From: a virus | Strand: one strand, 5' to 3' | Virus record (IMG/VR): IMGVR_UViG_3300022562_001969 | Coordinates: 1-64,000 of that record | DNA length: 64,000 nt | Shown here: positions 24,766 through 39,124 of the stretch, piece by piece | Numbering within the stretch: position 1 is the first letter of the stretch | How the letters are laid out: each line of letters opens with the position of its first letter | Notes under the pieces: generated by a model | What the model saw: the letters and a program-made list of their open reading frames with translations, nothing else | What the model was told of the DNA's origin: nothing | Database searches by the model: none | Position numbers and translations under genes: made by a program

Positions 24766-25441
24766 GGTTGTTCCCCTGTATAAATGTTTTGACTTGATTT
24801 TCAATAAACCTGTCAACCTCGGTGATCCGGTCTGTTGGCTTAAATTCCCCTGTTTGTACCCACTTAAAAATAGCCTCGATAAAGAATTGTTTTGTATTCC
24901 CTAGATATGACTCTATTTTGATCTCTATTTGCGGCGAACCATCATCAGTGTGGGGCATAACAAATCTAAGCCCCCCCCCCAGAATTGGCCTGCCAAATAT
25001 GGATAATGACGCTTCAGGCTGTCTTAAGCGAGTGACCCATAATTCTTGAAATGCATGGTCACCTGAAGCTTGATAAAGATAACGAATAGATGCGTCACAA
25101 GATAAAATCTGACGCGATCCTGTCCAGGTAGACCGGAAAGCTTGAATAACCATATCGACGATTCTGGAAAATTCATCCGGTATATAGGTCGGATTAGGGT
25201 TAGCGATTATGAGTAACTGGCCGATAGGAGCATCAATATTGGCCCCAATTTTTATTTGAAGCGGCGGCGTCTTTTTGAGAATCAGTATCCCATTATCAGC
25301 TGTTAGCTCACCTCTATCATAATCAACGCCAGCGTTCAATATCGCTTGTTGAAAGGCGATCAATCGTTGTTTATTTATTTCAGGTGGGGGGGATAAAACA
25401 TAATTAATTCCTAAATGTAACAAAACCCCTTCATCATGCAT
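24758..25441 (-). CDS. hypothetical protein, TIGR04255-like, first gene of the TA operon
   Basis: 227 aa, AT-rich, coupled to antitoxin; family by resemblance only. Confidence 0.55.
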   Translation of the reverse strand: MHDEGVLLHLGINYVLSPPPEINKQRLIAFQQAILNAGVDYDRGELTADNGILILKKTPPLQIKIGANIDAPIGQLLIIANPNPTYIPDEFSRIVDMVIQAFRSTWTGSRQILSCDASIRYLYQASGDHAFQELWVTRLRQPEASLSIFGRPILGGGLRFVMPHTDDGSPQIEIKIESYLGNTKQFFIEAIFKWVQTGEFKPTDRITEVDRFIENQVKTFIQGNNHD

Positions 25442-25477
25442 TCCTTAAACCCCTTTCTGTAAAAGTTTTGAAGATGA

Positions 25478-26098
25478 GTTTCAATCTCTCATTCGAGATA
25501 ATCGGCCTTTGAACCTGACGCAAAAAGCGGCGCAAAAAATGGCGCAGATTGAGTTTCAATCTCTCATTCGAGATAATCGGCCTTTGAACAGCATCTAACC
25601 ACATCTAGCAATAGGCAAAAAAGAGGTTTCAATCTCTCATTCGAGATAATCGGCCTTTGAACATAAAAATAGTATACCATAAATTTGCCGAGTGTGCAGT
25701 TTCAATCTCTCATTCGAGATAATCGGCCTTTGAACTGATGTTAAGATTGTGGGGACGGTGGCCAGCTTGTTGTTTCAATCTCTCATTCGAGATAATCGGC
25801 CTTTGAACCAGATAATGGCCAAGGTTGCCAAGTATTACGGTGTGTTTCAATCTCTCATTCGAGATAATCGGCCTTTGAACAGGACAAATGAGCGGAATTG
25901 TAGAGGTTGTAAACGGGTTTCAATCTCTCATTCGAGATAATCGGCCTTTGAACAGTGACGATCCACTAGCAGGCGCAACTTTTTAAGGAGTTTCAATCTC
26001 TCATTCGAGATAATCGGCCTTTGAACGCGGGCGCAATTGGATGAGGCCATCAATGAGGCGGGTTTCAATCTCTCATTCGAGATAATCGGCCTTTGAAC
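25478..26098 (-). CRISPR. CRISPR array 1: 9 identical 37-bp repeats, 8 spacers of 35-38 bp (I-D/III-like)
   Basis: Minus-strand repeat GTTCAAAGGCCGATTATCTCGAATGAGAGATTGAAAC ends in the ATTGAAAC handle. Confidence 0.97.
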
Positions 26099-26133
26099 AG
26101 CGGTCGTCCATCGTCTATCGTCGCCGGTCGTCG

Positions 26134-26586
26134 TCAGTTCCGCAGGCGCTTAATCCGGTCCATCTTGCGGGTCATGAGGCCGCTCAAGCGATAAATGGCC
26201 TTAACCACGATAGCCTGACGGCTGAGGCCGAGCAGCAGGCCGTCGTGATAGCTGGAAAGGTCGCCGATGTGGGAGGCGATGGCCGGGCTGTGGAAGCCGG
26301 GCCGGGGGTAGTCGTGGGCGAAGCGGTTGCGGATGTGGTTAATGATCGTCAGGTCGTCAAAGTCGGCCTGGTCTATCAGGCCGGTGCAGAGGGCCAGCCG
26401 GCGGCGGGTGACCGCCCGTTCCAGGAGGGCCGTTTTCTGGGTTTTGCTGCCCAGGAGGGCCACGTCCAGGAGTCGGTAGAGGACCTGGTCCAGGTGGGCC
26501 GCGCCGCGAATGGCGATCTCGGAATCGATGACGGTCTTGATTTGGGGATTGGTTTGGGGCTGTGCTAAAATAGATACAGCTTGCAT
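26134..26586 (-). CDS. HEPN-superfamily (MtlR-like) protein
   Basis: AAHLDQVL...GLID...INHIRNRFAHD, an RxxxxH motif. Confidence 0.7.
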   Translation of the reverse strand: MQAVSILAQPQTNPQIKTVIDSEIAIRGAAHLDQVLYRLLDVALLGSKTQKTALLERAVTRRRLALCTGLIDQADFDDLTIINHIRNRFAHDYPRPGFHSPAIASHIGDLSSYHDGLLLGLSRQAIVVKAIYRLSGLMTRKMDRIKRLRN

Positions 26587-26697
26587 GGTAAGTTCACTCC
26601 TTACTGTGCTTGTTAGAGTTCCGTCGGTGGTATCAACACCGGCGGAATTCGTCATTTAATTGACCTTCATTATAAATCTGTTTGGGGAAAAGGTCAA
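26587..26697 (-). promoter_or_regulatory. repeated promoter/leader cassette, copy 2
   Basis: TTGACC-17-TATAAT, GGTCAA inverted repeat, hairpin, CACAGTAAGGAG RBS. Confidence 0.72.
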
Positions 26698-26726: not shown

Positions 26727-26854
26727 TTCGACGATAGACGTTGATAATTGACAATTGACAATTGACAATTGACAATGGTCGTCCATCGTCCATCGTCGTC
26801 TAATTGATTTCATGCGCGTTGACAGGCGGGCATAATATATGTATCATATGTAAT

Positions 26855-27025
26855 ATGACGACAGAACGCGAACCGGAAAAAATGAAACCGTATCCTGTAA
26901 ATTTTCCGCCCAGCCTATGGCTGGCTGCCCGCCGTAAAGCGGGGGTGCGTTCGCTGGCCGGGATTATCCGGCGGCTGATAATAATGTGGTTAAGGGAGGA
27001 GGTTGTTCTGATGGATGATGAATAG
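26855..27025 (+). CDS. ribbon-helix-helix (CopG/Arc-like) regulator
   Basis: YPVNFPPSLWLAARRKAGVRSLAGIIRRLI; TTGACA-17-TATCAT promoter upstream. Confidence 0.6.
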   Translation: MTTEREPEKMKPYPVNFPPSLWLAARRKAGVRSLAGIIRRLIIMWLREEVVLMDDE

Positions 27026-27205
27026 ATAATAGATAATTGTCAATTGTCAATTATCAATTGTCAATTATAAACAGAGGGCCATCCGGGTGCAACCGGTGGC
27101 CCCGCTTACATACTATATCAGGGGCACAGCATGCAAGGTACTTTTTATTTTACCAACGATAAAAAAAATAGACAAATGCCGCCGCCCCCTTTCAATTTTT
27201 TGTTA

Positions 27206-27234
27206 GTTTTCCCCACAGGCGTGGGGGTGAACCG
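27206..27234 (+). CRISPR. solitary type I-E-like repeat abutting an RBS
   Basis: GTTTTCCCCACAGGCGTGGGGGTGAACCG followed directly by GGAGGAGCT-ATG. Confidence 0.85.
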
Positions 27235-27243
27235 GGAGGAGCT

Positions 27244-27996
27244 ATGGCAAAGCGTAGGGTTAAGTGCCCGCAGTGCGGGTATAGACACATCATCAACATT
27301 CCCAGTCGGAAAGCGATGACGGTGGGCGTGCGAGCCAAACGGATCACGGCCAACCAGTTTGAATACACCCTAAACGGTCCCGCCGAAATCTCGGATGACG
27401 CCAGATTTAGCACGGTGGCTGACGACCTGGTCCTGTCCGGCGCGTTTGGCGGCGCGTTGGGAGCCGTGGCGGGGGGCGCGGTGGCTGTCTTCGCGCCGGA
27501 GTACGCCCTGCACGGGGCCGGCGTGGGCATGAGCGCCGGGGTAGCCCTGGCCTGGGGCTGGTTGTGCGCGGAACATAACCAACGGCTGAAACGGGTGTTG
27601 CCCTGGTTCGTTGAGCAGCGGCAAAACTGGAAACGGCCCGAGCTGGGGGACGATGGCGAGATCAGGCTGACGGTAGATCATCTCCATCGGGACAGCTACA
27701 GCGAGCAAGGCCGCTCCATCGCCCTCCTGGGGACCCTACCGGTCGATGTGGAGCGCTTCCGGGCCTGGGCGCAAGGGGCCATCCGGGGCGATAGCCTGGC
27801 CATCAAACACTGGACGGGAGCCGAACGGCCTTTCAGCCGGGATGAGTATGATCGCCTGCTGCTCAAAATGAGGGCGGCCAATATAGTGACCAATCTGCCG
27901 GGGAAGGGCAATACCCTGACCAATCCCGGCAAGCACGCTCTGAAACGTATCCTGGCCGAGACCCCCTCCCCTACCCCGGCTGAGGAGCGTGCGTGA
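27244..27996 (+). CDS. zinc-ribbon, membrane and winged-helix-like protein
   Basis: CPQCG N-terminus, two Gly/Ala-rich TM segments. Confidence 0.65.
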   Translation: MAKRRVKCPQCGYRHIINIPSRKAMTVGVRAKRITANQFEYTLNGPAEISDDARFSTVADDLVLSGAFGGALGAVAGGAVAVFAPEYALHGAGVGMSAGVALAWGWLCAEHNQRLKRVLPWFVEQRQNWKRPELGDDGEIRLTVDHLHRDSYSEQGRSIALLGTLPVDVERFRAWAQGAIRGDSLAIKHWTGAERPFSRDEYDRLLLKMRAANIVTNLPGKGNTLTNPGKHALKRILAETPSPTPAEERA

Positions 27997-28202
27997 TGCC
28001 AAAAAGCCCGGAAAATGCACGCACGCACGTGCCCGCCCGCTCCAGATGGGGCTATAGCGTCTCCTATTGGCCCAGCAAAAGCGAATTCAGGATTGTTAAC
28101 TATGGCCAGGGGGAGCTGATCAAGTCGTTGCTGTTTTGGTGGCGTTTGCGCCGCCATCCCTCATTTAAGAATGTACGATGGTCGTTAATCACTGATTGGT
28201 AA
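27993..28202 (+). CDS. small hypothetical protein
   Basis: Coupled ORF. Confidence 0.45.
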   Translation: MMPKSPENARTHVPARSRWGYSVSYWPSKSEFRIVNYGQGELIKSLLFWWRLRRHPSFKNVRWSLITDW

Positions 28203-28208
28203 GGTGCT

Positions 28209-29024
28209 ATGACAAAACCAGACAATAAACAGAAACCTTTCATCATCCGCTATAGAGAATTTTGGACCAATGTCCAGGCGATGATCTTCTACCCCTTCCA
28301 GAATATCGGCCCTTTCATTGTGGCCGCTATGCCGGCGCTCTTCACCGGCCATAGCGTCTACACCTGGTACGCGGAAACCAGCGCCGCCTGGCTGGCCATG
28401 CTCATTAGCTGCGTGGTGGCTATTGCCATGGAGGCGATCAATATCAACGTGGTCCATACATCCCTCGATCTTTTTGAGCAAAAACAAAATGGCAAGGGTT
28501 GGCTGATGGCCCTTTTCTCCCTCATTGTAATGGCCCTGGTTTCGACCGTTATCGGCTTCAGTGAAGGGGACCTATCCCCCTTGATCAAGGGGTTGGCCGT
28601 CTCCAGCCCCTGGCTCACCGGCATTGTCTACCTGGCGGTCGGGATGGCGCAGGGCATCCACCAGGAGAAACAGCAAGCCGATTTGGACAGAAACGAGCGG
28701 CGTCAATCCGAGGCGGAACAACGTGAGTTCGAGCGACAATTGAAGCTAAAAGAGATAGACAAAAATCACGAATTACGATTAGCCAAAATTGAAGCGGCTA
28801 AAAGTGTTCAATCGAGTGTCAAGCCAACTGTTCAATCGAGTGTCAAGGGGTTGACACCTGAAGATGTCAAAAACGCTGTTTCCCAATCGGAAAAGCCGGT
28901 TAACATTACACAATTGGCTAAAGATTTACAAGTAAGCCGGACAACACTTTACACTAAACTGAACGGTCTGGTAGATAGTGGGGAAATGATTAAAAATGGG
29001 AACGGTTACGAGGTAATCAAATAA
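28209..29024 (+). CDS. 4-TM membrane protein with coiled coil and C-terminal HTH
   Basis: Hydrophobic helices; NITQLAKDLQVSRTTLY. Confidence 0.7.
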   Translation: MTKPDNKQKPFIIRYREFWTNVQAMIFYPFQNIGPFIVAAMPALFTGHSVYTWYAETSAAWLAMLISCVVAIAMEAININVVHTSLDLFEQKQNGKGWLMALFSLIVMALVSTVIGFSEGDLSPLIKGLAVSSPWLTGIVYLAVGMAQGIHQEKQQADLDRNERRQSEAEQREFERQLKLKEIDKNHELRLAKIEAAKSVQSSVKPTVQSSVKGLTPEDVKNAVSQSEKPVNITQLAKDLQVSRTTLYTKLNGLVDSGEMIKNGNGYEVIK

Positions 29025-29169
29025 TTTATGAAGACCGCTTGGTCAAACGCTGTTTATGGTGCAATGGTTTAGGTTATGATACCTACCTGGGCCACACTTG
29101 CGATATGTGTAACGGCAAAGGTGGAAAATGGGAACGGGTGAGGGTACTAGTAGGTGAGGAAGTAATAGA

Positions 29170-29661
29170 ATGAGAAAAATAATGCTCTTGGCATTAACTT
29201 TAATTATCTTGACAGGCTGCAATAGTAGCGTCAAAAACGCTAAAGCCGAAGCCATACGTCACCAGACTGACCGCGCAGACGATTGGCACATTGCCAGATT
29301 AGAGGAATCCGAGGCTTTAATGCCAGTCAGAATTATGGTCAAGGAAGTGCTTTGGTATACCGGTATGGTTAGCGGTATCCTTCTCCTTTTAGGTAGCGGC
29401 CTGGCCGGTGGCTGGTGGATGGTAGGCACATCAGTCAACAGGGTGAAATTTCACCGGGTCAGTCTGGATGTCCAGACAAGGCAGTATCCACTGTTGGTTT
29501 ATGGCAACGGCCGGCGGGTCTTCAACCCGAATACCGGCGAACGGCTATTGTTGGCCGAAAACAGTGAAGCGTCTTTGACCCGGATCGAGGCCAGTACAAA
29601 GGTACAACTGGCGGGGATGCTACCGGATCGGATGATAATAGATGATCCTCATCATCACTAA
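29170..29661 (+). CDS. putative lipoprotein
   Basis: Lipobox LTGC and one further TM segment. Confidence 0.65.
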   Translation: MRKIMLLALTLIILTGCNSSVKNAKAEAIRHQTDRADDWHIARLEESEALMPVRIMVKEVLWYTGMVSGILLLLGSGLAGGWWMVGTSVNRVKFHRVSLDVQTRQYPLLVYGNGRRVFNPNTGERLLLAENSEASLTRIEASTKVQLAGMLPDRMIIDDPHHH

Positions 29662-31549: not shown

Positions 31550-33199
31550 TTATATCTCCAACCGCCCTTGTGTTGGCCCTGCTCTTTCTTCTCTTTGGGC
31601 TTGTTTGAAGGTTCCATAGGCGGGCGGCATTTGTACACTTGCCCCCCCTAACAACGCCTCAATGGTAAGTATCTGAATTTTAGGGTATTTTTGGCCCCAG
31701 GCTACAGCCTCATAAAAACCGGCTGACACCGCCTCCTGGATCATCGGCTGCGTTGGTTCTTCCAGGGTGATAAAAACGCCGATAGCCGCCTTTTCCCGTT
31801 CAACCGTCCCAACCAGATCACGAATATCCCGGCTTGACACCTTGCCGCTCTTGACTTGCGCTAAAACCCGCTTAGGTTTGCCTTTTGCCGTATCAATAAA
31901 GGTGATAACCCCATCGATCCCTTTATCCGCTCCTTTTTTGCCCTTTTTACTGCCCTGGGTCGCTTTGCCCGGTCTGGCCCTAACTAACGACAAGGCCCAC
32001 CATTCAAACTGAAAGCGGTCTTGTTCTGCCAGAAAACGAGCAGAGCCTATTGTTTCAGGCTCGCCCTTGACTTCAAACGTTGTGTCCGGAAAGGCTTCTT
32101 GTAGACGATATTTTTGCAAGGCAATAGATAAATGGGTGATGTCAATACCTATCCACTTTCGGCCTAGTTTTTCAGCGGCTACTATCGCAGTACCACAACC
32201 GCAAAATGGATCAAGGACTACATCACCAGGGTTGCTACTGGCTGAAATGATACGTTCTAGTAAAGGTAAAGGTTTTTGTGTAGGATAACCCAGACGTTCA
32301 GCATCAGAACTTTGCAAAGGATTTATATCAGCCCAAATGTTTGTAATAATTGTTCCTTTTTGTTCGTTCAAAAAACGTTTAAGCGCAGGACGTTTACTAA
32401 AATCATAGGAACCATCTTTGTGACGTGGATAATAAATGCGCCCTTCATCGTGTAACTTTTGCATGGTTTCAGGTTTATAACGCCAACCTTTAGCAGGATA
32501 CGGAAAGCCTAGCCATTCGTACATCATATTGGGTCTAGGATTTGGACTTGTCATATTATCCAAACGATATAAACCGCGTCCATTATTATCATCAAATCGG
32601 TAATTTTTTTGGATATATTCCAAATCATATGGTCCATATTGAACAATAAACAGGTTTTTTTTGGAACGTTTATAAAAAAGAATTATGTCAGCAATATCAG
32701 CAAATTTCGTCTTTGCGTCACTATGGGCTGACTGTCGTTTCCAAATAATTTCATTGCCAAAGTTCTCAGCCCCAAAAATAGTATCAAGGATGACCTTCAA
32801 ATAATGGCTTGCTGTTGGGTCACAATGCAGATATAAGCTACCAGTAGGGTTCAATACCCGATGAAGTTCAACCAATCGACTAGCCATCATAACCAAATAA
32901 GCCATCATTTGGTTAGCGCCAATAAAATCACGCATGGCCCCAATCATCTTACTTATATGATCTGGTGATTCTGTTATCAATTCGTGATAGGTTTCCTCAG
33001 CGGCCGCGTTCCAGTGCCAAGTATCATCAAAAGCCGTTATCTGCGCCTGGCTATCTTGCCCACTTTCATCTTTGAATAAGACATTATAGCTGCGCTTTGA
33101 GTTAAAGGGGGGGTCAAGATAGACTAAATCAATACTTTCATCTGCTATGTAATCACGTAGAATTTGAAGGTTATCGCCATAATAAAGGGTATTTTTCAT
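31550..33199 (-). CDS. N6-adenine/N4-cytosine DNA methyltransferase fused to an Mrr-like endonuclease domain
   Basis: DPPF, YPTQKP, DPFCGCGT; C-terminal DKGIDG...QVKSG. Confidence 0.9.
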   Translation of the reverse strand: MKNTLYYGDNLQILRDYIADESIDLVYLDPPFNSKRSYNVLFKDESGQDSQAQITAFDDTWHWNAAAEETYHELITESPDHISKMIGAMRDFIGANQMMAYLVMMASRLVELHRVLNPTGSLYLHCDPTASHYLKVILDTIFGAENFGNEIIWKRQSAHSDAKTKFADIADIILFYKRSKKNLFIVQYGPYDLEYIQKNYRFDDNNGRGLYRLDNMTSPNPRPNMMYEWLGFPYPAKGWRYKPETMQKLHDEGRIYYPRHKDGSYDFSKRPALKRFLNEQKGTIITNIWADINPLQSSDAERLGYPTQKPLPLLERIISASSNPGDVVLDPFCGCGTAIVAAEKLGRKWIGIDITHLSIALQKYRLQEAFPDTTFEVKGEPETIGSARFLAEQDRFQFEWWALSLVRARPGKATQGSKKGKKGADKGIDGVITFIDTAKGKPKRVLAQVKSGKVSSRDIRDLVGTVEREKAAIGVFITLEEPTQPMIQEAVSAGFYEAVAWGQKYPKIQILTIEALLGGASVQMPPAYGTFKQAQREERAGPTQGRLEI

Positions 33200-33575
33200 T
33201 GGTTGACCACCTGACCAGGCCAGGCTATAACAAATGGCAAGTGAACGGTTCACCATCATGCCCGTGGAGAATACCCTGATTTTATCCGAGTTTGGGATGA
33301 CAGGCAAAAAAGACGGTCGTCCATCGTCCATCGCCCATCGTCGGTTACTTGTTTTCAGGCCAAAAGGGTATATAATTGATTTAGCGACATTTTGGCTTGA
33401 TAGTCTGATCAAGATATAATAGTAAAAGAAGCTCCAACCTCTGACAGGCTATCTGTCCAAAGTGTCGCAACTTGAGAGGTCTGGGGCTTCTTTTTGGTGC
33501 TTCAGGATTTTCCGTGGGAACCACTATATCGCCATACAAGAAAAGTAAGCCAACTTTCAAAGATAGGTTCGCAAG

Positions 33576-35627
33576 ATGACTGAAAGCCGCCAACCTGGTA
33601 GGAATTTTAGGGATGAATTACTTAAGATTTTGTCAGGGATGACCGCTTTGGATGACCCTGACAACCGATATCGGCTATTGGACAAGTTGCCACTAGAGGC
33701 AGTAGCAACCATACGACGCAATTCTGCTAAGGGGACCGACCTATACAATATCGTTCAGGCTGCCGAAGGATGGGGACAATTGACCTCTGGAGAGTGGGCC
33801 TTGGTCGTTATCGCCCAAAACGCCCTATCTCTAGTTAAAGGAACCCACCCCGGTCGTCAGCTAGAGGCTCTTTTAGCTGAAAGGGTTATTCATCAGGCCA
33901 AGCCAGGCCGGCAGATCCCCCTTGATCTGCCAGCGCGAGAGGAGAATTTTATAGACCGTAAGGACGAACTGGTATCTCTACTCACCGAATTACAACCAGG
34001 ACGAGTAGTCACTTTGACTGGGCCGGGGGGCATGGGCAAGACTGCCCTGGCCGCGGAAGCCGTTGGCCAACTGGTGGTTGATCATAAGCCCCCTGAGCGT
34101 TTCCCGGATGGCATCTTCTTTCATAGCTTTTACAACCAACCCCAAGCCGGTTTAGCCCTGGAAAGTCTGGCCCTGGCCTTTGGCGAGGAAGCCAGGCCAA
34201 CGGCCCAGGTAGCGGCACAACGGGCGTTGAGCGGCCGGCAGGCCTTATTGGTGTTGGATGGCGCTGAAGATGCGGATGACTTGGCGGCCGTGTTAGCGGT
34301 GCGCGGGGGGTGTGGGGTTTTAATAACCAGCCGTAATCGGGGCGATGCGCCGGCCGTGTTGCAAGACCTGGCGCCCCTCAAACAGCAAGACGCCCTGGAC
34401 TTATTACAACGCTGGGCTGAAGCGCAGCTTGATGACCAGGCGGCGGCCATTGCCATCTGCGAACTGGTGGGGAGGCTGCCGCTGGCGGTGCGTCTGGTAG
34501 GGCGGTATCTGCGTGAGACCGGGGAGACGGCCAGCGAGTATCTAGCCTGGTTACAAGAAACCCCGTTAGAGGCCCTGAACCAGGGGCGGCGACGCGAAGA
34601 AAGTATACCTGTCTTACTTGAGCGCAGTCTAAAGCAGGTCAGTGAGGCGGCGCGGCAAGTGTTGGCGGTGGCCGGCCGGCTGGCGCTGGCCCCGCTGCAA
34701 CAAGAGGTGATGGGGGCCGCTTTGGCAGCCGAAGCGCGTGAGGTGAGACAGTGGTTAGGAGAATTGGTGCGCTATGGCTTGCTGAGCCGGGACAAAGGGC
34801 GTTATGCCATCAGTCACGCCCTCATTCACACCTACGCCAGTGAGCGGCTCAATGTGGCGGAGGAGATGGTCGAGCGGTTGGTGGCTTTCTATGTCGCTTT
34901 GGCTGAACACTTTAGCCAGCAAGGATTGGCAGGCTACCAGGCGCTTGATGGGGAGCGGCCTCACCTGCTGCGCTTGATTGCAGGCTGCGCGAAAGGAGAT
35001 GATTGGCTGGGGGTTCGCAAGCTGGTCTGGGCCATTGATGGTTATTTGTCAATTCAGGGTCACGCCAGCGAACGACAAACTGCCCTAGCGACAGGGCTAA
35101 CAGCCGCCCAACAACTGGGCGACCGCCAAGATGAAGGGGCATTTTTAGGCAGCCTGGGGACCGCCTACTACGACCAGGGGGAGCTGGACAAAGCCATCGC
35201 CCATTCTCAGCAAGCCCTGGTCATCCACCGCGAGATTGGCTACCGCCAGGGGGAGGCTGCTGTTTTAGGCTACCTGGGAACCGCCTACAGCATCCAGGGG
35301 GAGCTGGCCAAAGGCATCGACCATTATCAGCAAGCCCTGGTCATCCACCGCGAGATTGGCTACCGCCAGGGGGAGGCTTATAATTTAGGCATCCTGGGTC
35401 TCGCCTACCGCGCCCAGGGGGAGAGGGCCAAAGCCAGAGAATACTTAGCCCAGGCGCTCACTATTTTTGAGGCGATCAAATCGCCCCAGGCAGACGCAAT
35501 TCGTGAACAGTTGACTATGCTGACTATGTTAGGCCGCCTCCATATACTCTTAGCAATGTGTCAGGCCATCTACGAGAAAGGATTGATGAGGCAGCTTTTG
35601 CCGCTTTTCAAAAGGCTTATTCACTAA
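33576..35627 (+). CDS. NLR-like STAND protein: effector-associated-like N-domain, NB-ARC, TPR repeats
   Basis: GPGGMGKT, LLVLDGAE, LITSR, GRLPLAV; 40-aa TPR repeats. Confidence 0.88.
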   Translation: MTESRQPGRNFRDELLKILSGMTALDDPDNRYRLLDKLPLEAVATIRRNSAKGTDLYNIVQAAEGWGQLTSGEWALVVIAQNALSLVKGTHPGRQLEALLAERVIHQAKPGRQIPLDLPAREENFIDRKDELVSLLTELQPGRVVTLTGPGGMGKTALAAEAVGQLVVDHKPPERFPDGIFFHSFYNQPQAGLALESLALAFGEEARPTAQVAAQRALSGRQALLVLDGAEDADDLAAVLAVRGGCGVLITSRNRGDAPAVLQDLAPLKQQDALDLLQRWAEAQLDDQAAAIAICELVGRLPLAVRLVGRYLRETGETASEYLAWLQETPLEALNQGRRREESIPVLLERSLKQVSEAARQVLAVAGRLALAPLQQEVMGAALAAEAREVRQWLGELVRYGLLSRDKGRYAISHALIHTYASERLNVAEEMVERLVAFYVALAEHFSQQGLAGYQALDGERPHLLRLIAGCAKGDDWLGVRKLVWAIDGYLSIQGHASERQTALATGLTAAQQLGDRQDEGAFLGSLGTAYYDQGELDKAIAHSQQALVIHREIGYRQGEAAVLGYLGTAYSIQGELAKGIDHYQQALVIHREIGYRQGEAYNLGILGLAYRAQGERAKAREYLAQALTIFEAIKSPQADAIREQLTMLTMLGRLHILLAMCQAIYEKGLMRQLLPLFKRLIH

Positions 35628-35929: not shown

Positions 35930-36128
35930 TTGGACGATGGACGACCGGCGGCGACTTAAGACTGCGGCCGCCCATCGTCCATCGTCCATCGTCGCCAAGG
36001 CGAAGCGACCACCGACGACACAACACCGCCGCCCATCGTCCATCGTCCATCGTCGCCAAGGCGAAGCGACCACCGACGACACAACACCGCCGCCCGCCGT
36101 CCATCGTCTATCGTCCATCGTCCGTCGT
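35930..36128. repeat. heptamer REP/STRR-like tract (GACGATG/CATCGTC)
   Basis: Also near 17.1, 26.1, 26.8, 29.8, 31.5, 33.3, 38.0-38.46 and 39.3 kb. Confidence 0.8.
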
Positions 36129-37049
36129 CAGCCCCCGGTACGCCCGGGCCCGGGCCTCATCCCGGCCGCGCAGATAGACCGAAGTCGTGGCGATGTCCGC
36201 ATGGCCCAATTGGTCGCGCACCTTGTCCAGGGAGACGCCGGCTTCGAGGGCCAGCAAAGCCGAGGTGTGGCGCAGGGCGTGAAAGTAAGCCCGGGGCAAG
36301 CCGGCCGCCCTGGCCCGGCGCTTGAACAGTTGGCTCACCCCGGAGGCGGTCAGGCCGGGCCCCGGGCGGCCCCAGCGCCAGGCCGGGAAGACATGAGCGG
36401 GCCGGTGGCCACCCTCGGCCAGATAACGTTGCCAGGCCCACAAATCCCCTTTGACCGCCAAATTAAAATAGACCACCCGCCCCCGGCGCGTCTTGGCCGT
36501 CTCCGCCGCCACCTCGGCGGCCAGCTCGGCCAGGCGCAGTTGCTCCCAGCGCAGGGCGGCCACTTCCCCGGCCCGGCAGCCGGTGACCAGGGCAAAATGG
36601 ACCAGGGCCAGGTCGCGCAGCTCACGCCCCTCGCCGGCGGCGGCCGCCCGGCGCAACTGGGCCAGCAGGCGCTCCACTTCGGCCCGGCTGAGGGCCACCG
36701 GCGGCAGGTGGGGCCGGGGCGGCAAGAGGCGCAATTGGGCAATTTGCCGGGTCGGGTTGCGGTTGGCCTCAATGATCTCTAATTGTTCCAAAAAGTTGAA
36801 AAATGCGCGCAGGTGGGTATAATAGGTGCGCACCGTCACCTCTCCACCGGCGGTGGAGTCTATCCAGCCCATTACCTGACCGGCCGTGACCGGCCAGGCC
36901 GGGCCGATGTAGTCGGCGAAGCGGCTTAAGATATTGGTGTAGTTCTGTAGCGTCTTCGGCCGCCACGAACGTCTCTTGAGAGTGATAAAACCTTTAATGT
37001 GCCCTCCCAGAATGGTATCCGGGAGGGACACAGAAGGCGGCGTAGCCAT
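36108..37049 (-). CDS. tyrosine recombinase/integrase 2 (paralog of 10531-11538)
   Basis: TGCRAGE, AKT, FHALRH, LGHADIATTSVY. Confidence 0.92.
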   Translation of the reverse strand: MATPPSVSLPDTILGGHIKGFITLKRRSWRPKTLQNYTNILSRFADYIGPAWPVTAGQVMGWIDSTAGGEVTVRTYYTHLRAFFNFLEQLEIIEANRNPTRQIAQLRLLPPRPHLPPVALSRAEVERLLAQLRRAAAAGEGRELRDLALVHFALVTGCRAGEVAALRWEQLRLAELAAEVAAETAKTRRGRVVYFNLAVKGDLWAWQRYLAEGGHRPAHVFPAWRWGRPGPGLTASGVSQLFKRRARAAGLPRAYFHALRHTSALLALEAGVSLDKVRDQLGHADIATTSVYLRGRDEARARAYRGLTTDDGR

Positions 37050-37071
37050 ACGATTGGAGGCTCCGGAGAGA

Positions 37072-37152
37072 CTTCGGAGTCAAAACCTTTAGGTTTTTCT
37101 TCGGAGTCGAAACCTTTAGGTTTTTCTTCGGAGTCAAAACCTTTAGGTTTTT
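37072..37152. repeat. 3 x 27-bp tandem repeat upstream of recombinase 2
   Basis: CTTCGGAGTC(A/G)AAACCTTTAGGTTTTT x3. Confidence 0.92.
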
Positions 37153-37222
37153 CAAGCCTGAAGGCTTGGACTCCTCTATTCCGGAGTCGAAACCGGTTCA
37201 CCCCCACGTCTGTGGGGAATAC
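37153..37222 (-). CRISPR. solitary type I-E-like repeat (37194-37222) plus 25-nt spacer-like segment and hairpin
   Basis: GTATTCCCCACAGACGTGGGGGTGAACCG, then GTTTCGACTCCGGAATAGAGGAGTC, then CAAGCC-TTCA-GGCTTG. Confidence 0.8.
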
Positions 37223-37335
37223 GGGCTCCGGTTAATGCCCAAACCTAAAGGCTTGGACTCCTTTGAGCCTTTGAGCCTTTGAGCCTAAAATAAAAACCTG
37301 ACCGGTTTTTGAAACCAGTCAGGTTTGTTACCTCG

Positions 37336-37982: not shown

Positions 37983-38277
37983 GGACGATAGACGATGGAC
38001 GATGGACGGCGGGCGGCGGTTTGACGGGCGGCGGTCGTCCATCGTCGGTCGTCGCTTCGCCTTGACGACGATAGACGATGGACGGCGGTTTGACGGTCGT
38101 CGGTCGTCCATCGTCGGTCGTCACTTTGCCTTGGCGACGCTAGACGATAGACGATAGACCGCGGTTTGACGGTCGTCTATCGTCCATCGTCGGTCGTCAC
38201 TTCGCCTTGGCGACGCTAGACGATAGACGATGGATGGCTGTATGGCATCGTCGGTCGTCGGTCGTCGGTCGTCGTTC
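37983..38277. repeat. heptamer REP/STRR-like inverted tract
   Basis: GACGATAGACGATGGACG and its complement repeated. Confidence 0.8.
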
Positions 38278-38407: not shown

Positions 38408-38495
38408 GCGGTTTTAAGCTTCGCGACGATGGACGATAGACGACCGGCGACTAACGACGACCGTCTCTTTTGTTTATTTGTTTATTTGTTTATTT

Positions 38496-38854
38496 ATTTC
38501 AATCCACGCCCCCCGTGAGGGGAGCGACTTCGGTGAAGGAAAAAATTCCTTAACCGATGGGGTTTCAATCCACGCCCCCCGCGAGGGGAGCGACATAAAA
38601 ACAGGCTTCGCTTTGCGGGCTATTTCAATCCACGCCCCCCGCGAGGGGAGCGACTTGGCCGGTCAAGGTGATCCGCCAACCGGTTGCGGTTTCAATCCAC
38701 GCCCCCCGCGAGGGGAGCGACTTGCTGAAACGTTCGTGGTAGACTGTTTCAGTTTGTTTCAATCCACGCCCCCCACAAGGGGAGCGACGCGACCAGCTCA
38801 TCACTATCCAATTCAAAAAGCGTTTCAATCCACGCCCCCCACAAGGGGAGCGAC
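38496..38854 (-). CRISPR. CRISPR array 2: type I-C-like, 6 repeats of 33 bp, spacers of 33, 27, 34, 34, 33 bp
   Basis: Minus-strand repeat GTCGCTCCCCTCGCGGGGGGCGTGGATTGAAAC with variants. Confidence 0.95.
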
Positions 38855-39020
38855 GGCAACATCTGGGTATACCCAGATTATACATAATATATATTGTGGC
38901 GCCTTTTTTGTCAATCGGACAACCGGCTCAATATTGCTCGCTAAATGTTCTTTTTTGGGGTGGTTAAGGTACAAAATAGGCGCGAACCCTCCGGGCAATG
39001 GCTGGGCGCTTGGGGTTCGC
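38855..39020 (-). promoter_or_regulatory. type I-C leader
   Basis: AT-rich segment with GCGAACC...GGTTCGC inverted motif typical of I-C leaders. Confidence 0.65.
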
Positions 39021-39041: not shown

Positions 39042-39124
39042 CGGTTCACCCCCACGCCTGTGGGGAATACTCGTCCATCGTCCATCGTCGCGAAGCGGTT
39101 CACCCCCCCGCCTGTGGGGAATAC
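39042..39124 (-). CRISPR. type I-E-like mini-array: two 29-bp repeats, one 25-bp spacer
   Basis: Repeats at 39042-39070 and 39096-39124; spacer 39071-39095. Confidence 0.9.

What the first reader, a model, noticed from the sequence alone, without database searches (positions are those of the whole stretch)
27206..27246. Solitary I-E repeat fused to the ribosome-binding site of a membrane-protein operon
The 29-bp repeat ends at 27234 and GGAGGAGCT-ATG follows immediately, so the RBS and start codon occupy the 'spacer' position. Cas6e cleavage or Cascade assembly would directly alter translation of 27244-29661. It could also act as an RNA anti-CRISPR (solitary repeat units are established Racr candidates). 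A weak 7-nt seed match with AAG PAM exists at 26992-27001 and may be chance.
Basis: partly seen in the sequence, partly recalled or inferred. Interest (0 to 1): 0.75.

Follow-up and report, generated by a model that had tools for sequence, protein, structure and literature searches.

The report
Phage CRISPR repeat abutting a ribosome-binding site
A complete phage with no cas genes carries an intact copy of its hosts' type I-E CRISPR repeat exactly in front of the ribosome-binding site of a conserved phage gene, so the host's CRISPR RNA-cutting enzyme would probably bind and cut this message; whether that blunts immunity, controls the gene or does nothing has not been tested.

Summary
A perfect 29-nt type I-E repeat lies at 27206-27234. 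GGAGGAG follows at 27235-27241, then the ATG at 27244. Thirty-three homologues confirm that ATG as the true start.

The window is a complete 86-kb, cas-less, integrase-bearing siphophage with two other CRISPR arrays and five I-E units. All five lie sense to the gene or array downstream of them. The 28-nt core of this unit equals the array repeat of Phototrophicaceae (Chloroflexota) genomes.

The "seed match" at 26992 is chance. I found no guide target and no leader homology.

One Anaerolineae genome with Cas6e shows the same geometry. It has about 30 exact lone repeats or mini-arrays in housekeeping operons. One sits 1 nt before the conserved ribosome-binding site of rpoC, and several lie just after solute-binding-protein genes.

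My best reading is a Cas6e-recognised leader that is cut 17 nt before the AUG (confidence 0.4). A pure decoy (Racr) and a neutral recent insertion remain serious rivals.

No RNA data and no DNA from relatives could be obtained. Earlier notes of this scan report repeat-before-RBS arrangements on other DNA.

I class it as a new variant of a known kind; interest 0.6.

The parts
26819..26847 (+). Promoter-like site TTGACA-17-TATCAT (11 of 12). It is the nearest consensus promoter upstream on the same strand.
   Evidence: The same scan lists no terminator-like site on the + strand between this site and the end of the scanned region (29900), so none lies between it and 27244.
26882..27025 (+). 47-aa ORF between the promoter and the repeat, without annotation. 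It contains the AAG-GGAGGAG 'seed' site at 26992-27001.
   Evidence: no PHROG match; reading frame worked out.
27037..27071 (+). Heptamer tract (TTGTCAA/TTATCAA) holding a weaker candidate promoter, TTGTCA(27044-27049)-16-TATAAA(27066-27071).
   Evidence: Read by eye. The scan did not call it because its last base is A. Low confidence.
27206..27234 (+). Intact type I-E CRISPR repeat unit (c1). The stem-loop spans 27210-27227. The predicted Cas6e cut lies between 27226 and 27227, leaving the 8-nt handle GUGAACCG (27227-27234) on the downstream RNA.
   Evidence: The 28-nt core occurs 252 times in the fetched stretches of arrays from four Phototrophicaceae genomes. The cut position is inferred from published Cas6e biochemistry, recalled from memory and not tested here.
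27235..27241 (+). Shine-Dalgarno sequence GGAGGAG. It starts at the first base after the repeat and can be extended by the repeat's last G.
27244..27996 (+). Conserved 250-aa phage protein. It has an N-terminal CPxCG zinc-ribbon-like beta region, two long hydrophobic helices (residues 57-130) and a C-terminal winged helix.
   Evidence: 33 homologues; AlphaFold2 model, C-terminal pLDDT about 88; weak matches to eS19/MntR winged helices; no Pfam or PHROG match.
27993..29661 (+). Rest of the co-oriented gene string: a 69-aa ORF that overlaps the preceding stop by 4 nt, a 271-aa ORF with below-cut-off C-terminal helix-turn-helix matches (28209-29024) and a 163-aa ORF (29170-29661).
33246..33274 (-). 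Fifth, decayed I-E unit, 24 of 29 identical to c4. All 5 changes lie in the stem-loop and the handle GTGAACCG is intact. It lies 46 nt before the ATG (33199) of the methylase-Mrr gene, in sense.
   Evidence: (family D18).
37194..37222 (-). I-E unit c2, 144 nt before the integrase ATG (37049), in sense. It is flanked by direct repeats. The 12 nt that follow it recur behind an AAG PAM at 37102-37113.
39042..39124 (-). I-E mini-array (units c3 and c4) with a 25-nt spacer built from the phage's own heptamers. The spacer matches 38419-38443 at 24 of 25 behind AAG.

Best explanation
The unit is a working copy of the host's type I-E CRISPR repeat, built into the transcribed leader of a conserved phage gene string.

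Inferred mechanism. The leader is transcribed from the near-consensus promoter at 26819, or from a weaker one at 27044. In a host with a matching I-E system, Cas6e binds the hairpin and cuts between 27226 and 27227. The upstream RNA keeps Cas6e on its 3' hairpin. The downstream message then begins with the 8-nt crRNA handle, followed at once by the ribosome-binding site and, 17 nt from the new end, the AUG.

I commit to the reading that the main effect is control of this gene string by the host's I-E proteins. Cutting frees a short-leader message, and Cas5e/Cas7e loading on the handle would cover the ribosome-binding site. Titration of Cas6e, as by a decoy, would be a side effect. On this reading the unit belongs to a set of phage leaders (units c1, c5 and c2, plus the mini-array) wired to host Cascade.

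Shown here: the sequence, the fold, the identity to natural repeats, the geometry, the true start codon and the cas-less phage context. Inferred: transcription, cleavage, protein loading and any effect on expression or immunity.
For: 1. The unit is intact, and its 28-nt core equals a natural array repeat seen 252 times in the fetched stretches of arrays from four Phototrophicaceae genomes. In one genome, arrays of the near-identical variant lie next to a Cas6e gene.
2. The complete phage has no Cas6e, Cas7e or Cas1 gene, so any protein partner must come from the host.
3. The unit lies sense to the gene. The scan found no terminator between the promoter and the ATG.
4. The repeat ends exactly where the Shine-Dalgarno sequence starts, within a 218-nt gap. 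By rough, after-the-fact placement odds this is about 1 in 100.
5. The arrangement recurs within the phage. All five I-E units lie sense to the downstream gene or array. Three of them (c1, c5, c2) lie 9, 46 and 144 nt before genes. The last 37-nt repeat of another array lies 36 nt before ATG 25441.
6. The two other units whose following sequence was tested and gave a hit, c2 and c3, have PAM-flanked partial matches to the phage's own DNA. That fits a use of host Cascade on phage genes.
7. The same junction appears independently in genome G001. There the repeat is followed by C, then GGAGGT, 5 nt and the TTG start of rpoC. Six relatives keep that ribosome-binding site and start codon without any repeat.
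8. Lone repeats in G001 also follow solute-binding-protein genes at L022, L046, L040 and L038. At L044 they flank such an operon.
Against: There is no RNA evidence of any kind. No promoter was called within 250 bp by the scan, and the closer one was read by eye only. Folding does not show the ribosome-binding site hidden in the uncut leader (z-score -0.63). No relative's DNA could be read, so conservation of the junction is unknown. Only one other viral contig in IMG/VR holds this repeat, as a mini-array. In G001 one exact copy lies inside an open polyketide-synthase frame, and all copies there are identical and absent from relatives. That pattern looks like a recent, partly neutral spread. 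The host of the phage was not identified.
Confidence: 0.4

Rival explanations
1. RNA anti-CRISPR (Racr-type decoy). The leader RNA ending in the repeat hairpin soaks up Cas6e, and Cas7e on the RNA upstream of it. This forms dead-end complexes and lowers interference. The position against the ribosome-binding site would then be incidental economy: the decoy rides on an early message.
For: Viral solitary repeat units are established Racr candidates. Two I-E Racrs were validated, and one Racr is co-transcribed 11 nt behind an acr gene (PMC10651486). The unit meets the solitary-repeat-unit criteria. A near-consensus promoter lies 360 nt upstream with no terminator between. The phage's I-E units copy three different natural repeat variants, as expected for covering several host systems. 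The phage also carries other CRISPR mimics.
Against: This does not explain the exact abutment on the ribosome-binding site. It does not explain the same geometry in a bacterial chromosome, where an anti-CRISPR makes no sense. Nor does it explain the PAM-flanked self-matches of units c2 and c3. No small-RNA boundaries are visible, and the scan called no promoter within 250 bp. The neighbouring genes are unannotated, so no acr context can be claimed.
Confidence: 0.28
2. Neutral or nearly neutral recent insertion. In some Chloroflexota, exact I-E repeats spread as small REP-like units into transcribed gaps. The phage picked up copies while resident as a prophage, and only positions that do not harm expression survive.
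For: G001 holds about 30 identical lone copies or mini-arrays at 23 loci. They are absent at rpoC in six relatives. One lies inside an open polyketide-synthase frame and some are antisense (L006). Unit c5 of the phage has decayed. IMG/VR shows no relative with the same junction.
Against: The phage's units copy three different natural variants, so a single burst in one host does not explain them. All five phage units lie sense to the gene or array downstream. All five changes in c5 fall in the stem-loop and none in the handle (by my count, about 0.02 by chance). The G001 copies favour sense orientation (about 37 to 16 by crude gene calls) and positions just after solute-binding-protein genes, the classical REP position. 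That suggests selection on the RNA.
Confidence: 0.22
3. crRNA-like regulatory guide (Cracr/CreA-CreR type). The handle plus the following 24-27 nt, ending at the GC hairpin at 27264-27282, would load into host Cascade and repress a partly matching promoter in the host, for example a cas or toxin promoter.
For: Phage I-E Cracr RNAs with 21-24-nt pseudo-spacers are described (bioRxiv 10.1101/2024.10.29.618823). Units c2 and c3 of this phage do have PAM-flanked partial targets. An 8-bp hairpin lies 29 nt after the repeat.
Against: No target was found. In the phage the best match is 11 nt, flanked by GAT. A scan that ignores every sixth position found nothing better. The 40-odd fetched host loci gave no seed of 9 nt or more behind a PAM. 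The 'pseudo-spacer' is a working ribosome-binding site plus conserved codons, and the hairpin is the CPxCG coding motif, about half alike to the repeat.
Confidence: 0.06
4. DNA-level recombination site. The near-palindromic repeat would serve the phage integrase for integration into host arrays, or for inversion between c1 and the oppositely oriented c2.
For: Unit c2 lies 144 nt from the integrase gene and is flanked by direct repeats, like an attP core. Units c1 and c2 are inverted copies 10 kb apart. The Racr paper mentions integration into CRISPR arrays as a proposed role of viral repeat units.
Against: Unit c1 has no integrase beside it and no arm-type repeats. The source assembly's contig runs through c1 with no alternative joint.
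Confidence: 0.04

Closest known systems
Viral solitary repeat units / RNA anti-CRISPRs (RacrIF1, RacrIE1, RacrIE2, RacrIC1; Camara-Wilpert et al. 2023, PMC10651486)
   Same: It is a full-length copy of a host CRISPR repeat on a cas-less phage, intergenic and not part of an array. Type I-E examples are validated. One Racr shares a transcript with a protein gene.
   Different: Known Racrs are small non-coding RNAs with their own promoter, or lie behind a gene. This unit sits inside a 5' leader and ends exactly at a ribosome-binding site, so cleavage would also redefine a message. Its activity is untested.
Phage Cracr RNAs and host CreA/CreR crRNA-like regulators (Liu et al., bioRxiv 10.1101/2024.10.29.618823; 10.1101/2024.12.27.630466)
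   Same: These are repeat-derived RNAs that use host Cas proteins for regulation rather than cleavage. Short-spacer I-E examples exist in phages. Units c2 and c3 of this phage fit that pattern.
   Different: Unit c1 has no second repeat-like element and no PAM-flanked partial target. Any regulation would act in cis on its own RNA, not through DNA binding.
Engineered Cas6/Csy4 cleavage sites placed between a 5' leader and the RBS (Qi et al. 2012; recalled from memory, not read here)
   Same: The geometry is identical: a repeat hairpin directly before the ribosome-binding site, so that cutting gives a defined short leader.
   Different: That is a synthetic device used without Cascade. Here the arrangement is natural and in a phage, and the host supplies the full I-E complex.
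REP/BIME intercistronic hairpins, for example malE-malF (recalled from memory)
   Same: These are short GC hairpins spread through transcribed gaps, often just after solute-binding-protein genes. The lone repeats in genome G001 have the same distribution.
   Different: REPs are not CRISPR repeats and have no dedicated nuclease partner. Here the dispersed unit is letter for letter the array repeat.
Standalone repeat-like sequences inside CRISPR-cas loci (Shmakov et al. 2023, PMC10120712; cited through earlier scan notes, not read here)
   Same: Single repeats in front of genes, proposed to tie gene expression to Cas proteins.
   Different: Those lie within cas loci and control cas or toxin genes. 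This one is in a phage, before a gene unrelated to CRISPR.

Membership tests
Type I-E CRISPR repeat | Length of 28-29 nt, with a GC-rich stem of 6-7 bp, a 4-nt loop and an 8-nt 3' tail ending in AACCG | tested here: met
   7-bp stem, loop AGGC, tail GUGAACCG, -13.5 kcal/mol.
Type I-E CRISPR repeat | The same sequence forms regular arrays (period about 61 nt) in genomes | tested here: met
   the 28-nt core occurs 252 times in the fetched stretches of arrays from four Phototrophicaceae genomes.
Type I-E CRISPR repeat | The arrays lie beside I-E cas genes, including Cas6e | tested here: met
   a Cas6e gene (PF08798, E 3e-55) lies 1.4 kb from the array in G001. The G001 repeat differs from c1 only in its first three bases. 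This was not checked for the Phototrophicaceae arrays.
Viral solitary repeat unit (SRUFinder definition, PMC10651486) | A full-length match to a known repeat, in an intergenic region | tested here: met
   The overlapping ORFs 27131-27319(+) and 27192-27530(-) are not supported: one is out of frame with, and the other antisense to, the conserved gene.
Viral solitary repeat unit (SRUFinder definition, PMC10651486) | No other full or partial repeat within 100 bp | tested here: met
   The nearest unit is 6 kb away. By hand alignment the hairpin at 27262-27288 is only about half alike to the repeat.
Viral solitary repeat unit (SRUFinder definition, PMC10651486) | Located on a mobile element without the matching cas genes | tested here: met
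   complete virus record with terminal repeats; no Cas6e, Cas7e or Cas1.
Racr (RNA anti-CRISPR) | A promoter within 250 bp and expression as an abundant small RNA | tested here: inconclusive
   the scan called no promoter within 250 bp. A TTGTCA-16-TATAAA candidate lies 135 nt upstream (by eye) and an 11-of-12 promoter lies 360 nt upstream. No RNA data.
Racr (RNA anti-CRISPR) | Binds Cas6 and Cas7 into an aberrant subcomplex and inhibits interference | not testable with these tools
   This needs biochemistry and interference assays.
Cracr / CreA-CreR crRNA-like regulator | A pseudo-spacer with at least 9 PAM-proximal matches to a promoter target | tested here: not met
   the best match is 11 nt with a GAT flank. 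The AAG site matches 7 nt only. The true host genome was not available.
Cracr / CreA-CreR crRNA-like regulator | A second repeat-like element closing the pseudo-spacer | tested here: not met
   Only the coding hairpin of the CPxCG motif is present.
Repeat-mimicking attP site | A core site next to an integrase gene, with flanking arm-type repeats | tested here: not met
   for c1. Unit c2 does show this layout.

The most novel reading that the evidence does not exclude
CRISPR repeats may serve as natural Cas6e-dependent modules in messenger-RNA leaders and between cistrons. A phage would place them before its accessory genes. At least one Anaerolineae bacterium would place them before rpoC and after solute-binding-protein genes. 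The CRISPR RNA-processing enzyme would then double as a post-transcriptional regulator of ordinary genes, and the phage would read the host's CRISPR state through it.
Probability: 0.25. Interest if true: 0.85.

Novelty: new variant of a known kind. Interest (0 to 1): 0.6.

Why it matters
If Cas6e really cuts this leader, the phage gene string would be switched by the presence of the host's CRISPR system. That would be a way for a virus to sense and respond to immunity that differs from blocking it. The same geometry before rpoC and inside transporter operons of a bacterium hints that CRISPR repeats can be recruited as general RNA-processing signals, a natural counterpart of an engineered trick. 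If the unit is only a decoy, it adds a Chloroflexota phage example in which a Racr rides in a message leader. If it is neutral, the spread of exact repeats across a chromosome still needs a mechanism.

Tried and rejected
1. Guide-target idea. The 32 nt after the repeat were scanned against the whole phage, with contiguous seeds and with every sixth position ignored, and against all fetched host loci.
2. Captured leader-plus-repeat idea. The flank shows no likeness to ten host array leaders.
3. Flank shared with the other units or elsewhere in the phage: none.
IMG/VR and metagenome scans with the protein and with its alignment gave only distant C-terminal relatives or false hits to release factor 2. 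GenBank phages gave no match. A sample of 400 Anaerolineae genomes and five Phototrophicaceae or Promineifilaceae genomes gave distant matches or none. A scan for the repeat-RBS junction in IMG/VR gave nine unrelated coding matches.
5. Expression. No RNA holder was listed. Laid contigs show the same phage in a second sediment study, and a variant about 90% alike (27330-27716) in a third, but none bridges the junction. The extra cover over the repeat comes from ordinary arrays.
6. Host identification. 484 spacers from fetched arrays and 7 from laid contigs do not match the phage. The phage's 37-nt repeat was not found in 10 candidate genomes or in a sample of 400 from the phylum, and its I-C-type repeat was not found in five candidate genomes.
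7. Prophage origin of the G001 copies. No phage protein has a homologue at those loci, and no integrase lies between paired copies.
8. Orthologous empty site for a G001 transporter locus: the relatives are too diverged.
9. Rfam has no matching family.
10. Function of the 250-aa protein: no Pfam or PHROG match, and only weak winged-helix fold matches.

Full report
**What is there.** The 29 bases at 27206-27234 read GTTTTCCCCACAGGCGTGGGGGTGAACCG. A search allowing up to three mismatches finds four copies in the window, while 100 shuffles gave none. Alone, the unit folds into a 7-bp stem with a 4-nt loop, followed by the 8-nt tail GUGAACCG, at -13.5 kcal/mol. GGAGGAG occupies 27235-27241 and the ATG is at 27244. 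That ATG is the true start. The 250-aa product has 33 homologues at 41-70% identity, and all aligned ones keep the N-terminus M-x-K...C-P-x-C-G. One gene caller had picked a later Met.

**Where it sits.** The window is the first 64 kb of an 86,114-bp virus record with direct terminal repeats, rated complete. It encodes a tape-measure protein, a Dit-type tail component, a Gp37-type tail protein, a tyrosine integrase, a ribonucleotide reductase, a sigma factor, a methylase-Mrr fusion and a NACHT/NB-ARC-TPR protein. It has no Cas6e, Cas7e or Cas1 gene.

It does carry three kinds of CRISPR repeat. There is a ten-repeat array of a 37-nt repeat (25469-26102) plus one distant copy. There is a six-repeat I-C-like array (38496-38864). 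And there are five I-E units:
- c1 at 27206, on the + strand;
- c5 at 33246-33274(-), decayed, with five mismatches;
- c2 at 37194-37222(-);
- the mini-array c3/c4 at 39096-39124 and 39042-39070(-), with a 25-nt spacer.

All five lie sense to what follows them. Unit c1 is 9 nt before the 250-aa gene. Unit c5 is 46 nt before the methylase-Mrr gene. Unit c2 is 144 nt before the integrase gene. The mini-array lies before the I-C array. The last 37-nt repeat of the other array also lies 36 nt before ATG 25441, in sense.

**Whose repeat it is.** The 28-nt core of c1 is the array repeat of four Phototrophicaceae genomes, with 252 copies in the stretches I fetched. Unit c4 equals the repeat of Caldilineaceae, Promineifilaceae and a few other genomes. 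Unit c2 equals that of a Cloacimonadota genome and of a viral mini-array. In the Anaerolineae genome G001, arrays of the variant beginning ATATT lie 1.4 kb from a Cas6e gene. That settles the subtype. Contigs from two other sediment studies that hold pieces of this phage, or of a variant about 90% alike, also hold ordinary arrays of this repeat. The host itself was not found. One clue is that the phage's heptamer tandem repeats resemble those in intergenic regions of relatives of G001.

**Ideas that failed.**
- The AAG-flanked 'seed' at 26992-27001 matches 7 nt only and lies in coding sequence. GGAGGAG occurs 13 times in the genome.
- No other PAM-flanked partial match to the 32 nt after c1 exists in the phage or in the fetched host loci.
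- The flank of c1 resembles no host array leader and nothing else in the phage.
- The GC hairpin 29 nt downstream (27264-27282) is the coding sequence of the conserved CPxCG motif. By hand alignment it is only about half alike to the repeat.

The mini-array spacer matches 38419-38443 at 24 of 25 behind AAG. The 12 nt after c2 recur behind AAG at 37102-37113.

**A parallel outside the phage.** G001 holds, besides its big arrays, exact lone repeats or two- and three-repeat mini-arrays at 23 loci. These are not prophage sites.
- By crude gene calls the units are mostly sense to their neighbours, about 37 to 16.
- At seven loci a gene with a Pfam match starts 3-18 nt after the unit: permease genes at L022, L040 and L046, ccmF, a CoA-transferase, an FAD oxidoreductase and an FG-GAP protein.
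- Units follow solute-binding-protein genes at L022, L046, L040 and L038, and flank such an operon at L044. This is the classical position of REP hairpins (from memory).
- Before rpoC lies a promoter-like TTGACA-17-TACAAT, a partial repeat and two full repeats. The last repeat ends 1 nt before GGAGGT, which is followed by 5 nt and the TTG start.
- Six relatives keep that ribosome-binding site and start codon but have no repeat there. The repeat was therefore placed exactly at the 5' edge of a conserved ribosome-binding site, as in the phage.

Against a purely functional reading, all copies are identical and recent, some are antisense (L006), and one lies inside an open polyketide-synthase frame.

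**How it most likely works.** A near-consensus promoter (26819-26847) points at the unit, and the scan found no terminator in between. A weaker candidate promoter at 27044-27071 was read by eye. If the unit is transcribed in a host with a matching I-E system, Cas6e should bind the hairpin and cut 8 nt before the repeat's end. That expectation comes from established Cas6e biochemistry, recalled from memory. The cut would fall between 27226 and 27227, 17 nt before the AUG. The upstream RNA would keep Cas6e. The message would start with the crRNA handle, followed directly by the ribosome-binding site.

I favour control of the gene string by host I-E proteins (confidence 0.4), for three reasons. 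The abutment on the ribosome-binding site is exact. It recurs in a chromosome, where an anti-CRISPR role makes no sense. And c2 and c3 look like guides aimed at the phage's own DNA.

A pure Racr decoy (0.28) has experimental precedent. I-E Racrs were validated, and one Racr is co-transcribed with a gene (PMC10651486). It also fits the three repeat variants, but it leaves the geometry unexplained. A neutral recent insertion (0.22) fits the burst-like spread in G001 and the decay of c5. It fits less well with the three variants, the uniform sense orientation and the intact handle of c5. A guide with an unknown host target (0.06) and a recombination site (0.04) are minor. Unit c2, beside the integrase gene and flanked by direct repeats, is a better candidate for the recombination role.

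**Comparison with what is known.** The unit meets every criterion I could test for a viral solitary repeat unit. For Racr membership the promoter criterion was inconclusive and activity could not be tested. The two Cracr/crlRNA criteria I could test were not met. What is new is the position: inside a message leader and flush with the ribosome-binding site. That is the layout of engineered Csy4 insulators (from memory). Earlier notes of this scan, which I did not check, report lone repeats before ribosome-binding sites in Cas12m-bearing phages and before cas6 or cas2 genes on other DNA. The arrangement may therefore be a wider theme.

**Limits.** There are no RNA data. The host is unknown, and the 250-aa protein (zinc-ribbon-like part, two hydrophobic helices, winged helix) has no known function. 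All functional statements are inference.

Noticed in passing
L020:7440-7860 (-) = G001:C1, about 543.4-543.8 kb; relatives L071-L077: In an Anaerolineae genome that has Cas6e, rpoC is preceded by a promoter-like TTGACA-17-TACAAT, a partial I-E repeat and two full ones. The last repeat ends 1 nt before the ribosome-binding site, which six relatives keep without any repeat.
   Followed up: partly
G001 loci L006-L047 (for example L022, L038, L040, L044, L046, L034, L018): Exact I-E repeats or mini-arrays with 32-nt spacers are scattered at 23 loci through housekeeping operons. They are mostly in sense and often lie right after solute-binding-protein genes, as REP elements do. One lies inside an open polyketide-synthase frame. 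How they spread is unknown.
   Followed up: partly
window 33246-33274 (-): This is a fifth, decayed I-E unit, 46 nt before the methylase-Mrr gene. All five changes fall in the stem-loop, while the 8-nt handle and the first six bases are intact.
   Followed up: partly
window 37050-37320 (-): The I-E unit next to the integrase gene is flanked by a direct repeat (GGAGTCCAAGCCTT...) and followed by three 27-nt tandem repeats. This layout resembles an attP core with arm sites, so the phage may integrate into host CRISPR repeats.
   Followed up: no
window 25441-26697 (-): The ten-repeat array of 37-nt repeats is embedded in a gene string: a promoter at 26697-26669, a 173-aa ORF, the array, then a 227-aa ORF whose ATG lies 36 nt after the last repeat.
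   Followed up: partly
window, many sites (for example 26741-26798, 27021-27070, 35960-36140, 38025-38270); L072, L075: Tandem heptamer repeats (TTGACAA, CGTCCAT and others) fill the phage's intergenic regions. Similar heptamer tracts occur before rpoC in Anaerolineae genomes, which is a possible clue to the host.
   Followed up: no
window 31550-35627: The phage carries defence-like genes side by side: a DNA methylase fused to an Mrr-type nuclease domain, and a NACHT/NB-ARC-TPR protein with an EAD8 effector-associated domain.
   Followed up: no
window 27244-27996: The 250-aa protein founds an unannotated family, with 33 metagenome homologues. It has an N-terminal CPxCG beta region, two long hydrophobic helices with an invariant WGWLCAEHNQRLK stretch, and a C-terminal winged helix.
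   Followed up: partly
L005:3927-4186 (IMGVR_UViG_3300048059_000001): This is the only other IMG/VR contig with the repeat. It has a two-repeat mini-array with a 32-nt spacer, and its repeat variant is identical to unit c2 of this phage.
   Followed up: no
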